From contig JADJGV010000002.1 of assembly GCA_016707895.1 (NCBI GenBank), positions 399,695-463,694 on the forward strand: 64,000 bases of DNA, read 5' to 3'. Below the pieces are notes generated by a model. The model was not told the origin of the DNA and made no database searches. It saw nothing but the letters and a program-made list of their open reading frames with translations. How positions within the stretch are numbered: position 1 is the first letter of the stretch; every line of letters starts with the position of its first letter. The DNA comes from Myxococcales bacterium (lineage in GTDB: Bacteria > Myxococcota_A > Polyangia > Haliangiales > Haliangiaceae). This document shows, in pieces, positions 55,303 through 57,578 of this stretch. The translations under genes were made by a program, and so were the position numbers.

Positions 55303-57578
55303 CCTCGATCCGCGACGCCGCCGGCAACACCGGCACCCGCACCTGGAGCTCGCTGGGCAACAAGCTCGGCGAGTGCGATCCCGACCTGGGCTGCTGGAGC
55401 TACGAGTACGACGCCGACGGCAACCGCGTCGCGCAGACCGACGCCAAGGGCCAGCGCCTAACCTTCGCCTACGACGCGGTCGGCCGGCGCGTCGCGCGCT
55501 CGCTGCCCGGCGGCGCGCAGGTGCTGTGGCGCTACGACGAGGTCGGCCGCGGCGCCACCGGCGGTGACGCGCCGACGTCGGTGACCTGGCCGACCGGCAG
55601 CGACGCGCTGGCCTACGACGCCGGCGGCCGCGTCGTCAGCTCGACCCGCTGCGTGACCGGCGGCTGCCGCACCACCGGCTGGGCCTACGACGTCGCCGGT
55701 CGCCTGCAACGCCTGACCTACGGCGACGGCGCGGTCGTGACCTACGGCTACGACGGCGCCGGCCGCCTGAGCTCGGTGCCGGGCTACGCGTCGAGCCTGC
55801 GCTACGACGCCCGCGGCCAGCTCACCGAGTTGACCTACGCCAACGGCGTGGTCCAGCGCTACGCCTACGATCAGGGCCGCGAGTGGCTGACCTCGTCGAC
55901 GGTGACCGCGGCCGCCGGCGCGTCGCTGTACCACGCGAGCTACGGCTACGACGCCGCGGCGCGGGTGACGTCGATGGGCTCGACCACCGACGCCCGCGGC
56001 AACCTGTCGCTCGGCTACGACGACCTCAACCGCCTCACCACCGTCAGCGGCGGTCAGTCGGCCAGCTACGCCTACGACGCGCTCGGCAACTTCACCCGCG
56101 GCCCCGGCGGCGCCGCCTACGCCTACGCCGATCCGGCGCACCGCCACGCCGCCACCGCGACCGGCGGCGGCAGCTACGCCTACGACGCCAACGGCAACAT
56201 GACCACCGGCGGCGGGCGCACCTATACCTGGGACGCCGAGAACCGCCTGGCCGCGCTGACCGGGCCCAACGGCAGCGCCAGCTACACCTACGATCCCGAC
56301 GGCCAGCGCACCTCGCGCACCACCGCCGCCGGCACCACGCGGTCGTGGGGCAAGCTGCTCGACGACGGCCCCGACGGCGTCACCCGCTACGTCTACGCCG
56401 GGCCGGTGCTGCTCGCGCAGGTGCGGGGCGCCAGCGACGTCCGCTACGTCCACGCCGATCACCTCGGCTCGGTGCAGCTGATGACCGACGCCGCCGGCGC
56501 GGTGATCAAGCGCCACGACTACGCGCCCTACGGCGCGCAGCTCGCCAGCGAGGGCGCCGCCGACAACCGCCGCGGCTTCGGTGGCCACGAGACCGATCCC
56601 GAGAGCGGGCTGGTCTACATGAACGCGCGCTACTACGACCCGGCGCTGGGCCGGTTCTTGTCGGCGGACACGATGATCCCCGACCTCGCCAACCCGCAGG
56701 CGCTCAACCGCTACGCGTTCGCCTACGGCAACCCGATCGTCAACGCCGATCCCACCGGCCACGCGCCGGTGATCGCGGCGGTGGTCGCGGTGGCGACGGT
56801 GATCGCGTCGTCGGCGCCGGCCTGGGTGGTCGCGGTCGCGGTGGTCGGCGCGGCGTGCACGGTCGCCGGCTACGTCCTCAAGGACCCGACGCTGATGACG
56901 ATCGGCATGGTCGCGCTCGGCTTCGCCACCGGCTACGTCGGGCCGCTGCTGGGCGGGATCGGCGGTGGCCTGCTCGGGGCCTCGGTGGCGGCGCTGACAT
57001 CACCGCTCAGTCCGCTCGACCCCGGGGTCAAGCAAGCGATCGGCTGGGCCTACGCCGCGGCGTCGTTCGTCGCGGGGCAGGTGCGATCGAGCCAGGAGCT
57101 GTCGAACCTCGAGAGCGCGGCCAAGGAGACCGCGGCCAAGGAGGGCGTCGCGGCCGAGACGCTGGCCAAGTTCGAGGACCCGACCCGCGCGCAGATGTCG
57201 GCGTACGTCGCGGCCAAGGCGTCGAACACCTCGATGCAGCAGGTGCTCGAGACCGTGGCCAAGACGGACGGCGGCGCCGGCTTCGGCCTGGTCGGCCCCG
57301 GGACCGGCACGATGACGACGCTGCTCGAGAAGACCGTCGGCTGGCTGCCGTCGGTGCGCCTTCACGGCATCATCCACGACGCCTACGGCTTCATGTACAA
57401 CTCGTGGAGCGTCGGGCCCGGCTACCAGTACGCCGGCTGGGAGCCGATGCCGCGCGGCATGCCGGTGTCGGGTCAGCTCACCGGCGTCTTCCGCAACACG
57501 TTCCTGCAGCCGTACGGGTTGAGCGAGATCGACGCGATGGGCCGCCTCGGCTACCACGCGCCGGCGATCGCCAAGTGA
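55200..57578 (+). CDS. TcC-like continuation in the -1 frame: RHS/YD repeats, RHS core with DPTGH, hypervariable C-terminal cargo domain. No canonical start codon.
   Basis: YD repeats (RYGRDPLGRL, YEYDADGNR, YAYDALGN). RHS core (YVHADHLGSVQLMTD...RYYDPALGRFLSADTMIPD...YAFAYGNPIVNADPTGH). About 270-aa tail with 3-4 TM segments. In-frame coding overlaps the 50659..55302 ORF with no ATG/GTG/TTG. Confidence 0.65.
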   Translation, partial: APRHRRPGPGGLDLEWNAGVEQRTRYGRDPLGRLTSIRDAAGNTGTRTWSSLGNKLGECDPDLGCWSYEYDADGNRVAQTDAKGQRLTFAYDAVGRRVARSLPGGAQVLWRYDEVGRGATGGDAPTSVTWPTGSDALAYDAGGRVVSSTRCVTGGCRTTGWAYDVAGRLQRLTYGDGAVVTYGYDGAGRLSSVPGYASSLRYDARGQLTELTYANGVVQRYAYDQGREWLTSSTVTAAAGASLYHASYGYDAAARVTSMGSTTDARGNLSLGYDDLNRLTTVSGGQSASYAYDALGNFTRGPGGAAYAYADPAHRHAATATGGGSYAYDANGNMTTGGGRTYTWDAENRLAALTGPNGSASYTYDPDGQRTSRTTAAGTTRSWGKLLDDGPDGVTRYVYAGPVLLAQVRGASDVRYVHADHLGSVQLMTDAAGAVIKRHDYAPYGAQLASEGAADNRRGFGGHETDPESGLVYMNARYYDPALGRFLSADTMIPDLANPQALNRYAFAYGNPIVNADPTGHAPVIAAVVAVATVIASSAPAWVVAVAVVGAACTVAGYVLKDPTLMTIGMVALGFATGYVGPLLGGIGGGLLGASVAALTSPLSPLDPGVKQAIGWAYAAASFVAGQVRSSQELSNLESAAKETAAKEGVAAETLAKFEDPTRAQMSAYVAAKASNTSMQQVLETVAKTDGGAGFGLVGPGTGTMTTLLEKTVGWLPSVRLHGIIHDAYGFMYNSWSVGPGYQYAGWEPMPRGMPVSGQLTGVFRNTFLQPYGLSEIDAMGRLGYHAPAIAK

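What the first reader, a model, noticed from the sequence alone, without database searches (positions are those of the whole stretch)
56750..57578. Uncharacterised ~270-aa hypervariable C-terminal cargo domain downstream of the RHS DPTGH site
The tail begins with 3-4 hydrophobic helices (VIAAVVAVATVIASSAPAWVVAVAVVGAACTVAGYVL; LMTIGMVALGFATGYVGPLLGGIGGGLLGASVAAL). A soluble ~180-aa region follows (…HGIIHDAYGFMYNSWSVGPGYQYAGWEPMPRG…) with no motif I can assign to a known toxin fold. In RHS/Tc systems this position carries the toxic effector. No small immunity-like ORF follows it, and dnaX starts 75 bp downstream. That favours a eukaryote-directed or membrane-acting effector over a nuclease/deaminase with cognate immunity.
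Basis: inference. Interest (0 to 1): 0.7.

Follow-up and report, generated by a model that had tools for sequence, protein, structure and literature searches.

The report
Two-part membrane cargo of an RHS toxin
The tail of this myxobacterial RHS protein is a membrane-inserting leader fused to a small helical domain from a large, unnamed effector family, but a one-base deletion upstream may stop this copy being made.

Summary
A 276-residue tail follows DPTGH (56748-56762), no database model matches it, and dnaX starts 74 nt after the stop.

The tail is two modules, not one hypervariable domain.
- Module A (56763-57083) has four hydrophobic, glycine-rich helices and ends in an invariant TSPLSPL..K.A.G motif. 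It is a shared leader on RHS proteins from several phyla, placed before interchangeable cargoes. One cargo is an M23 peptidase with lipoprotein immunity genes and orphan cassettes.
- Module B (57081-57575; core 57279-57515) is all-alpha with an invariant His-Asp. It belongs to an unannotated family of at least 682 clusters. That family is also carried by WXG100/T7SS, PAAR, eCIS, TraG_N and CesT-linked proteins, and occurs on one apparently eukaryotic contig. A confident AlphaFold model found no PDB or viral match.

No conserved immunity gene flanks any of the nine genomic loci carrying an A+B tail, nor the window gene.

Most likely reading: a membrane-anchored, envelope- or membrane-acting effector released from a Sec-exported TcB/TcC-like shell. 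The target is unknown, and a eukaryotic target is not excluded.

This is a new variant of a known kind, of moderate interest.

The parts
50659..50727 (+). Start codon (GTG) and predicted Sec signal peptide, MQQRALAFVVFFLAALPLAARAD.
   Evidence: Read from the translation. It aligns with the N-terminus of the intact homologue in L011. Assigning it as a signal peptide is an inference from the sequence.
50728..55242 (+). N-terminal 1,500 residues of the RHS protein: SpvB-like domain, a roughly 12-unit FG-GAP beta-propeller region, TcdB_toxin_midN and the first RHS repeats. As sequenced, this frame runs on to a premature stop at 55302.
   Evidence: Pfam gives FG-GAP 4e-35, TcdB_toxin_midN 1.4e-12, SpvB 2.3e-9 and RHS_repeat 3.4e-9. 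The third-position GC profile supports this frame.
55240..55244 (+). Frameshift site. The Ser codon tcg (55240-55242) and the Glu codon gag (55242-55244) share one base, so one nucleotide is missing relative to orthologues.
   Evidence: Raw sequence. The high-GC codon position changes phase between 55200 and 55320. L001 and L002 proteins align contiguously across ...VVLTS|EWNAG... but in two window frames.
55242..56762 (+). Rest of the RHS shell and the RHS-associated core, ending in DPTGH. The two aspartates expected for the autoprotease lie in RYYDP and NADPTGH.
   Evidence: RHS_repeat 6.5e-39. TIGR03696 Rhs_assc_core 3e-22, matched over model positions 1-76 of 76. DPTGH coordinates. The autoprotease role of the aspartates rests on established knowledge of TcC/Rhs proteins.
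56763..57083 (+). Module A: a 107-residue leader ahead of the toxin domain, with four hydrophobic, glycine-zipper-like helices, ending in ALTSPLSPLDPGVKQAIGWAY.
   Evidence: Hydropathy. Alignments A1 and A7. An HMM built from A7 matches the window once, at 3e-41. The same module precedes other cargoes in L009, L010, L011, L020 and L025.
57081..57575 (+). Module B: a 165-residue all-alpha domain. The conserved core is 57279-57515. H95, H99 and D100 are at 57363-57380 (HGIIHD). Other motifs are GLVGPG, VGPGYQY and SGQLTG.
   Evidence: Alignments A2, A4 and A6. A profile search found 682 clusters. The AlphaFold model has pLDDT 82.8 and pTM 0.78. Residue coordinates.
57576..57578 (+). Stop codon of the RHS gene.
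57579..57652 (.). A 74-nt intergenic gap before dnaX, with no ORF. No promoter-like or terminator-like site was called, and its predicted fold is no more stable than shuffled sequence.
   Evidence: z = -0.63.

Best explanation
The 276 residues after DPTGH are the cleavable cargo of a Sec-exported, single-chain TcB/TcC-like RHS shell. The cargo has two functional parts.

Module A is a conserved four-helix hydrophobic leader. It is inferred to insert into a target membrane once the cargo leaves the shell. An even number of helices would leave the attached domain on the side of entry, the periplasmic or outer face. Module A also serves as the constant junction at which different cargo cassettes are exchanged.

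Module B is the effector. It is a compact, low-charge, all-alpha domain with a His-x3-His-Asp site on one helix. It belongs to a large unannotated family that many secretion systems use as a C-terminal payload. It is inferred to act on a membrane or envelope component, probably as a metal- or His/Asp-dependent enzyme.

No linked immunity gene exists. So either the producer lacks the target, or protection is encoded elsewhere.

In this window a 1-nt deletion at 55242 uncouples the cargo from the start codon and signal peptide. As sequenced, the cargo would not be made.

Shown here: the gene architecture, the two-module structure, membership of both families, the absence of any fold match, the absence of a conserved neighbouring gene, and the frameshift.

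Inferred: shell release, membrane insertion and topology, enzymatic activity, and the target.
For: Architecture:
- SpvB, FG-GAP, TcdB_midN, RHS and Rhs_assc_core domains are all present.

Module A:
- It is shared by 10 genomic and 8 metagenomic loci.
- It precedes module B (L001-L008, L022-L024, L027), an M23 peptidase (P0005, 31.6 bits against a cut-off of 28.7), and several unrelated tails.
- L011 holds a full RHS gene followed by three orphan tails that each begin at module A. Each of the four tails is followed by its own small ORF. Three of these have lipoprotein signal sequences and one encodes a multi-pass membrane protein. So immunity tracks the cargo, not module A, and the site of action is periplasmic.
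- Module A is more conserved than the shell, at 80% against 60-63%.

Module B:
- The profile search found 682 clusters at E<=1e-3 and 291 at E<=1e-10.
- Among 103 representatives the partner domains include WXG100 x11, RHS x6, PAAR, eCIS_core, TraG_N, Portal_Mu, RTX, Lipase_3 x2 and Abhydrolase_8.
- NCBI names one cluster a WXG100 type VII secretion target.
- G, G, H-D, G and G-Y are invariant, and all are present in the window copy.
- Six RHS-borne members carry module A upstream.
- The core is 12% charged, against 24% in the rest of the same proteins.
- The AlphaFold model is confident and all-alpha.

Precedent:
- A hydrophobic C-terminal domain from a YD shell permeabilised E. coli only when it was sent to the periplasm (PMC13018210).
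Against: - No activity, target or fold relative was found for module B.
- The lack of an immunity gene is unusual for an antibacterial RHS cargo, and contrasts with the M23 cargoes that share module A.
- Hydrophobic helices in a Sec substrate should act as stop-transfer signals in the producer. This makes encapsulation in the shell hard to explain.
- No TcA-like, T6SS or other translocator gene was found among the window ORFs scanned.
- The broader distribution of module A could not be measured, because the word-indexed search was swamped by alanine- and glycine-rich candidates.
- The gene is frameshifted here, and L001 also changes frame.
Confidence: 0.55

Rival explanations
1. Eukaryote-directed effector. 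Module B attacks a eukaryotic membrane or host factor, for example in fungal or protist prey. The producer therefore needs no immunity protein.
For: - No conserved flanking gene is present in any of the nine genomic A+B loci or the window.
- A family member (P0022) lies directly after a CesT-type type III chaperone gene.
- A family subgroup sits on a contig with Mito_carr, LSM and SF3A2 neighbours at 38% GC, which is probably eukaryotic.
- An Anaerolinea WXG100-B protein is also followed by no small ORF.
Against: - Elsewhere module A leads an M23 peptidoglycan peptidase with lipoprotein immunity genes, which is antibacterial.
- No TcA-like translocator was found among the window ORFs scanned.
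- PAAR and WXG100 carriers are mostly antibacterial (my own knowledge).
- One family member (P0060) does have a tightly linked 188-residue ORF, with an Hcp gene nearby.
Confidence: 0.2
2. Module A is itself the toxin, a glycine-zipper pore former that depolarises membranes. Module B is an accessory or targeting domain.
For: - The helices are glycine-rich, in the pattern GxxxG / GGIGGGLLG.
- Module A is the best conserved part of the tail.
- A hydrophobic YD-shell C-terminal domain made E. coli permeable to propidium iodide when sent to the periplasm (PMC13018210).
- Some module B proteins outside the RHS group carry glycine-zipper hits upstream of the domain.
Against: - In L011, three of the four tails (the full gene and two orphans) share near-identical module A copies, yet each of the four is followed by a different small ORF. 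Protection therefore tracks the C-terminal cargo.
- Module B stands alone as a payload on WXG100, PAAR, eCIS and other carriers without module A.
- Module B has its own invariant polar residues.
Confidence: 0.12
3. The tail is not a weapon. Module A is a stop-transfer anchor that holds the Sec-exported RHS protein in the producer's own inner membrane, and module B has a cis-acting or structural role.
For: - There is a Sec signal at the N-terminus and strongly hydrophobic helices at the C-terminus.
- There is no immunity gene.
- The neighbourhood is housekeeping: PPK2 upstream and dnaX-ybaB-recR downstream.
- The tail evolves no faster than the shell.
Against: - The Rhs_assc_core autoprotease motif directly before the tail is intact.
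- L011 has orphan cassettes that begin at module A, each with an immunity-like gene.
- Module B is a C-terminal payload of T7SS, T6SS and eCIS-type carriers.
Confidence: 0.08
4. This copy is a decaying pseudogene, whatever the ancestral function was. This overlaps with the other readings and concerns only this genome.
For: - There is a 1-nt deletion at 55242 and a premature stop at 55302.
- The site has no slippery heptamer (sequence).
- The close relative L001 also changes frame, in its FG-GAP region.
Against: - The 2.3 kb downstream of the shift has no further stop codon and is gap-free in the 119 residues aligned just after the shift. Third-position GC stays at 0.90-1.0.
- The missing base may be one G of a GG pair, which would fit an assembly or sequencing error.
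Confidence: 0.4

Closest known systems
Tc toxin B-C subunits (for example TcdB2-TccC3, YenB/YenC)
   Same: Both have an SpvB-like N-terminal domain, an FG-GAP beta-propeller, TcdB_toxin_midN and an RHS shell. Both end in an RHS-associated core with aspartyl autoproteolysis, followed by a variable C-terminal cargo.
   Different: This protein is a single chain with a Sec signal peptide. No TcA gene was found among the window ORFs scanned. The cargo starts with four hydrophobic helices and is not an ADP-ribosyltransferase.
Large signal-peptide Rhs proteins of Myxococcus xanthus (Rhs4/Rhs5, kin discrimination; review PMC10433427)
   Same: Both are very large Rhs proteins with signal sequences and C-terminal polymorphic toxins, delivered independently of T6SS, in a myxobacterial setting.
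   Different: Rhs4 and Rhs5 are strain-specific, prophage-borne, and work with immunity. This gene sits between housekeeping genes, is conserved across genera, and has no linked immunity gene.
Bacterial teneurin-like proteins with a hydrophobic C-terminal domain (BiTLP; PMC13018210)
   Same: In both, a YD/RHS shell encloses a cleaved C-terminal fragment that has a predicted transmembrane segment. The BiTLP fragment is toxic only from the periplasmic side and makes cells permeable to propidium iodide.
   Different: Teneurin-like proteins use an FN-plug / NHL / YD-shell fold rather than SpvB / FG-GAP / TcdB_midN. Almost all of them have a downstream immunity gene. No sequence relationship between the two tails was tested.
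Pre-toxin domains of polymorphic toxins (PT-VENN, PT637 and others; Zhang et al. 2012, PMC3482391)
   Same: Each is a conserved module placed between the trafficking or repeat region and the variable toxin. Each marks the junction where cassettes are swapped.
   Different: Module A matches no Pfam model, including at E<=1. It is a four-helix membrane module that lies after the RHS cleavage site, so it travels with the toxin.
T6SS prePAAR / Tse6-type effectors with transmembrane domains (my own knowledge)
   Same: Hydrophobic helices travel with the effector and are thought to insert into the target's membrane to position or translocate the toxin.
   Different: In those effectors the helices are N-terminal, need Eag chaperones and depend on T6SS. 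None of these features is seen here.

Membership tests
RHS / YD-repeat polymorphic toxin | Multiple RHS/YD repeats forming a shell | tested here: met
   RHS_repeat scored 6.5e-39 with 8 stretches, and YD_repeat_2x scored 4e-27.
RHS / YD-repeat polymorphic toxin | RHS-associated core ending in DPxG[HL], directly before the variable tail | tested here: met
   TIGR03696 scored 3e-22 and matched over the full model, 1-76 of 76. DPTGH is at 56748-56762.
RHS / YD-repeat polymorphic toxin | C-terminal cargo that differs between otherwise related RHS proteins | tested here: met
   The same shell type and module A carry module B, an M23 peptidase, or other tails in L009, L010, L011, L020 and L025.
RHS / YD-repeat polymorphic toxin | Cognate immunity gene immediately downstream | tested here: not met
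   dnaX starts 74 nt downstream. No ORF is conserved downstream in the nine genomic A+B loci or the window, or upstream in the eight of these loci checked.
RHS / YD-repeat polymorphic toxin | Autoproteolytic release and toxicity of the tail | not testable with these tools
   The catalytic-type aspartates in RYYDP and NADPTGH are present in the sequence. Cleavage and toxicity need experiments.
Tc toxin complex (TcA + TcB-TcC) | TcB-type N-terminal region: SpvB, beta-propeller and TcdB_midN | tested here: met
   SpvB 2.3e-9, FG-GAP 4e-35 and TcdB_toxin_midN 1.4e-12.
Tc toxin complex (TcA + TcB-TcC) | A partner TcA translocator gene in the locus | tested here: not met
   The flanking genes are PPK2 and dnaX/ybaB/recR. 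The large ORFs elsewhere in the window are kinases, TPR proteins, an AMP-binding enzyme and regulators, and two had no Pfam hit. The rest of the genome was not available.
Tc toxin complex (TcA + TcB-TcC) | No signal peptide (cytoplasmic assembly followed by release) | tested here: not met
   The N-terminus MQQRALAFVVFFLAALPLAARADG looks like a Sec signal, and the L011 homologue has one too. This is judged by eye, not with a predictor.
Module B family (unannotated 'PTGG...HD...GPGY...GQxxG' domain) | Significant match to the family profile, with the invariant G, G, H-D, G and G-Y residues | tested here: met
   The A4 HMM matches the window at 9e-32. The invariant columns map to window residues G69, G72, H99, D100, G103, G114 and Y115.
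Module B family (unannotated 'PTGG...HD...GPGY...GQxxG' domain) | Use as a payload on secretion or trafficking domains | tested here: met
   Partner domains include WXG100 x11, RHS x6, PAAR, eCIS_core, TraG_N, Portal_Mu and RTX.
Secreted phospholipase A2 (including the parvovirus VP1u type) | PLA2 fold and a Ca-loop plus His-Asp active-site profile | tested here: not met
Pfam pre-toxin and toxin domains (PT-TG, Ntox, Tox-*) | A match to any curated model | tested here: not met
   The tail gave no Pfam hit at E<=1 and no NCBIfam hit at E<=1. PHROGs gave no hit at E<=0.01.

The most novel reading that the evidence does not exclude
Module B founds a new-fold enzyme family with a His-x3-His-Asp site. 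Bacteria would load it onto RHS, T7SS, T6SS, eCIS, conjugative and type III-chaperoned carriers, and some eukaryotes have acquired it. It would attack a membrane or envelope molecule that the producers lack, for example a lipid specific to prey or eukaryotes. That would explain why it travels without an immunity gene. Module A would be a new class of self-inserting leader that places RHS cargo on the outer face of a target membrane without a TcA or T6SS translocator.
Probability: 0.15. Interest if true: 0.75.

Novelty: new variant of a known kind. Interest (0 to 1): 0.5.

Why it matters
RHS shells with unknown cargo are common, so the gene as such is not surprising. Three things give it value.

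1. The soluble domain is not a one-off. It represents at least 682 sequence clusters spread over many secretion systems. It has no Pfam, NCBIfam or PHROG model and no structural relative in the PDB. One biochemical study would therefore annotate a large block of effector proteins of unknown function.

2. The conserved four-helix leader after the cleavage site offers a testable answer to an open question: how Sec-exported RHS proteins place cargo on a target without TcA or T6SS.

3. The consistent lack of linked immunity is an exception to the toxin-immunity rule. It could point to a target that the producers do not have.

Tried and rejected
- ADP-ribosyltransferase idea. Some relatives have an R...QxE-like GQVEG, but the Glu is Thr in the window and in P0001 and is not conserved. 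Rejected.
- HD-phosphohydrolase and zincin-like readings of HxxxHD. Neither has fold support.
- First AlphaFold run with 14 sequences gave pLDDT 52 and was unusable. The run with 50 sequences worked.
- The afdb50 fold library was not available.
- PDB sequence searches with the family profiles returned only chance hits.
- The word-indexed search with module A returned only 2 new proteins, because low-complexity candidates filled the list. The abundance of module A therefore remains uncertain.
- Searching the literature for the motif strings found nothing relevant.
- Two apparent cargo assignments did not hold up. The SLT-like match of P0006 is below threshold at 14.8 bits against 21.3. My reading of an M15-like motif in L020 got no Pfam support. 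Only the M23 assignment is solid.
- The intergenic hairpin before dnaX is no more stable than shuffled sequence, at z = -0.63.
- Programmed frameshifting at 55242 is unlikely, because there is no slippery heptamer in ttgacctcgagtgg.
- The window has no second copy of either module and no orphan cassette.
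Full report
OBSERVATION. The + strand ORF that ends at 57578 reads ...NADPTGH (56748-56762) and then APVIAAVVA.... The 276 residues after DPTGH begin with about 85 hydrophobic residues. Kyte-Doolittle 19-residue means are 1.4-2.05 over the first ~45 residues and 0.9-1.5 over the next, glycine-rich stretch. A region of about 165 less hydrophobic residues follows. The tail has no Pfam or NCBIfam match at E<=1 and no PHROG match. Third-position GC stays at 0.90-1.0 across it, so it is coding and in the host's own codon style. 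dnaX (57653-59506), ybaB and recR follow. The gap before dnaX is 74 nt with no ORF and no called promoter or terminator.

THE GENE. The protein starts at 50659 with a signal-peptide-like N-terminus. It then has an SpvB-like domain, about 12 FG-GAP units, TcdB_toxin_midN, RHS repeats and a full-length RHS-associated core. That is a single-chain TcB/TcC-type shell with a Sec signal.

The gene is interrupted. The phase of the high-GC codon position changes between 55200 and 55320. Orthologues from L001 and L002 align without a gap across ...GQVVLTS|EWNAGVEQ..., but in two different window frames that meet at nt 55242. The sequence ttgacctcgagtgg lacks one base and has no slippery site. As sequenced, translation stops at 55302 and the cargo is not made. 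The 2.3 kb downstream has no further stop codon, and the flanking alignments are gap-free, so this is either a very recent mutation or a sequencing error. With the base restored the protein is about 2,306 residues. That is longer than its relatives (about 1,950) because of extra propeller repeats.

The flanks are housekeeping genes: PPK2 upstream on the other strand and dnaX downstream. The rest of the window holds Ser/Thr kinases, TPR proteins, a sigma-54 activator and an ECF sigma factor, which fits Myxococcota. No TcA, VgrG or PAAR was found among the ORFs scanned.

THE TAIL IS TWO MODULES. Homology searches and a scan of one genome per species found the whole tail on uninterrupted RHS genes of about 2,000 codons. 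These are in Myxococcus sp. RHSTA-1-4 (67%), an Archangium MAG (68%), A. lansingense (three copies, two in tandem 4 nt apart), A. gephyra, and Polyangia and Deltaproteobacteria MAGs.

Other loci keep only the first ~105 residues and then diverge:
- A Thermoflexales contig (L009).
- An Acidobacteriota contig (L010), whose tail contains a GHSLGS motif.
- Metagenome contigs L020 and L025/L026.
- An ENA contig, L011.

L011 is the most informative. It holds a full RHS gene with the same architecture whose tail is module A plus a Peptidase_M23 domain, followed by a 183-residue ORF. Three orphan tails come next, each starting at module A, and each followed by its own small ORF (169, 157 and 135 residues in the gene calls). 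The ORFs after the full gene and the first two orphans begin with lipoprotein-type signals (LFGC, LCAC, FMGC). The ORF after the third orphan encodes a multi-pass membrane protein.

This is a classic orphan toxin/immunity array. It shows that module A is a constant leader placed after the RHS cleavage site. It also shows that protection tracks the variable C-terminal part, and that at least the M23 cargo works in the periplasm.

Module A has 16 invariant columns across 13 sequences from Myxococcota, Chloroflexota, Acidobacteriota and unassigned metagenome contigs (G..G, P.L, G, and A.TSP.SPL....K.A.G). Between the window and L001/L002 it is 80% identical, against 60-63% for the shell, about 50% for the linker and 67% for module B. 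So the tail is not hypervariable within this lineage. It is polymorphic only on the wider scale.

MODULE B. A profile of the conserved core (alignment A4) was searched against 1.84 billion representative proteins. It found 682 clusters at E<=1e-3 and 291 at E<=1e-10. The consensus is ...NPTGGlVGPGn...(17-30 residues)...HGxvHDAaGYLxnyhxxGPGYnYL...nPLsGQxsGI. The invariant residues are G, G, H-D, G and G-Y. The near-invariant ones are a second His four residues before the HD, P, A, Y, and the Q and G of GQxxG. The window copy has all of them, with HGIIHD at 57363-57380.

No Pfam, NCBIfam or PHROG model covers the domain in any of the members scanned. Source names are 'hypothetical', 'FG-GAP-like repeat-containing', 'WXG100 family type VII secretion target' or 'TraG N-terminal domain-containing'.

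Among 103 representatives the accompanying domains are:
- WXG100 (11)
- RHS (6)
- Apolipoprotein-like amphipathic repeats (5)
- Lipase_3 (2)
- PAAR, eCIS_core, TraG_N, Portal_Mu, RTX and Abhydrolase_8 (1 each)

About half the members end with the domain. That is the signature of a polymorphic-toxin or effector payload. Six RHS-borne representatives have module A upstream. In 36 of 165 members there is a transmembrane-like segment, mostly upstream of the domain. The core is only 12% charged, against 24% in the rest of the same proteins, and is 24.5% Gly+Pro.

IMMUNITY AND NEIGHBOURS. All-against-all comparison of every ORF within 2.5 kb downstream of the RHS stop, in the window and ten loci, found only the shared 3' end of the RHS gene itself. 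Upstream regions share only local synteny between three loci and no small partner gene. In A. lansingense the next RHS gene starts 4 nt after the previous stop.

Elsewhere in the family the picture is mixed:
- An Anaerolinea WXG100-B gene is followed by a photolyase gene.
- Another WXG100-B gene is followed by an EspG-like chaperone gene.
- P0022 sits directly after a CesT chaperone gene.
- P0060 is followed by an unknown 188-residue ORF, with an Hcp gene nearby.
- P0013 lies on a 38%-GC contig with Mito_carr, LSM and SF3A2 neighbours, so it is probably eukaryotic.

Linked immunity is therefore absent from the RHS A+B group and is at best occasional elsewhere.

MECHANISM. The best reading is as follows. 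The protein is exported by Sec, and the shell folds and cleaves at DPTGH. This step is inferred from the intact core motif and from established TcC/Rhs biochemistry. The released fragment then begins directly with the first helix of module A. Module A inserts into a target membrane, and with four helices the attached domain would stay on the side of entry. Module B acts there on a membrane or envelope component, probably through the His-x3-His-Asp site.

What supports this: the periplasmic logic of the M23 cargoes that share module A, the payload-type architectures of module B, its low-charge composition, and its co-occurrence with lipases and amphipathic repeats. There is also a published case in which a hydrophobic C-terminal domain from a YD shell made E. 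coli permeable to propidium iodide only from the periplasm (PMC13018210).

What argues against it: no activity or target is known, there is no immunity gene, no translocator was found, and hydrophobic helices in a Sec substrate should arrest in the producer's own membrane.

The rivals are a eukaryote- or prey-specific target, module A itself being the pore-forming toxin, a producer-membrane anchor with no weapon role, and simple gene decay in this genome.

COMPARISON AND NOVELTY. It works like an RHS polymorphic toxin and has the TcB/TcC domain set. It fails two membership features. There is no linked immunity gene, which is expected for antibacterial RHS toxins. There is also no TcA partner and it does have a signal peptide, which is unlike Tc toxins. 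It resembles the large signal-peptide Rhs proteins of M. xanthus (PMC10433427) and the teneurin-like proteins with hydrophobic C-terminal domains, but both of those come with immunity genes. Module A fits the concept of a pre-toxin domain (PMC3482391) but matches no described family. I rate this a new variant of a known kind. The carrier is ordinary, while the leader and the effector family appear undescribed in the libraries searched. Interest is moderate, and it is tempered by the frameshift in this copy.

Noticed in passing
window 55240-55302: The RHS gene lacks one nucleotide relative to intact orthologues, which gives a premature stop at 55302. The site has no slippery sequence. This is either a real pseudogene or an assembly error.
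   Followed up: yes
L001 1289-2350 (Myxococcus sp. RHSTA-1-4): In the closest genomic relative the N-terminal 275 residues and the rest of the RHS protein also lie in different frames. The break falls within the FG-GAP repeat region. That makes a second disrupted copy, or a repeat-induced assembly error.
   Followed up: partly
window ~51500-53700: The propeller region is expanded into two runs of about seven near-identical tandem units. One unit type reads ...AMWAGHGGGQSNNALGDYNGDGATDMAGYAG.GQWHVCLSTGSGFSC.... The other reads ...GDFDGDGKSDLATVS.NGGGGWADWIAIERSTGGGFAS.... This makes the protein about 350 residues longer than its relatives.
   Followed up: partly
L011 3126-14654 (ENA ERZ25072999 contig, 49% GC): A textbook RHS locus. 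A full gene with a module A plus M23 peptidase tail is followed by three orphan tails that each start at module A. Each of the four tails has its own downstream ORF. Three of these are lipoprotein-like and one encodes a multi-pass membrane protein.
   Followed up: yes
L003/L004 (Archangium lansingense, contig positions 9.84-9.86 Mb): Two full RHS genes with nearly identical A+B tails lie in tandem, with only 4 nt between the first stop and the next ORF. A third copy is at 7.89 Mb (L005).
   Followed up: partly
L014 6001-6936 (ENA contig of 858 kb, 38% GC): A module B homologue with a C-terminal transmembrane anchor lies among Mito_carr, LSM, SF3A2 and zf-met genes, so the contig is probably eukaryotic. 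P0015, P0023, P0026, P0032 and P0038 look like the same subgroup by sequence.
   Followed up: partly
L012 4578-6287 (JGI metagenome, 72% GC): A 428-residue module B protein lies 10 nt after a CesT-family (type III secretion chaperone) gene. It may be a type III-type effector. The organism is unknown.
   Followed up: partly
P0109 (Chromobacterium sp., 982 aa) and P0079 (1,752 aa): Module B is fused to a TraG_N conjugation domain in P0109 and to an eCIS_core domain in P0079. One representative also has a Mu-type phage portal domain. The domain seems to be loaded onto very different delivery machines.
   Followed up: no
window 12593-29644: Four Ser/Thr protein kinase genes lie here. The window also holds a sigma-54 activator, an ECF sigma factor and a 1,372-residue TPR protein. 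This gene content and 73% GC fit Myxococcota. The source species was not among the species-representative genomes scanned, where the best tail identity was 68%.
   Followed up: no
window 58700-59150 (dnaX): The dnaX product contains a run of 11 glycines and a long proline/alanine-rich low-complexity stretch with a near-duplicated segment (TTERVPERIAPPP appears twice). GC rises to 0.82 there.
   Followed up: no
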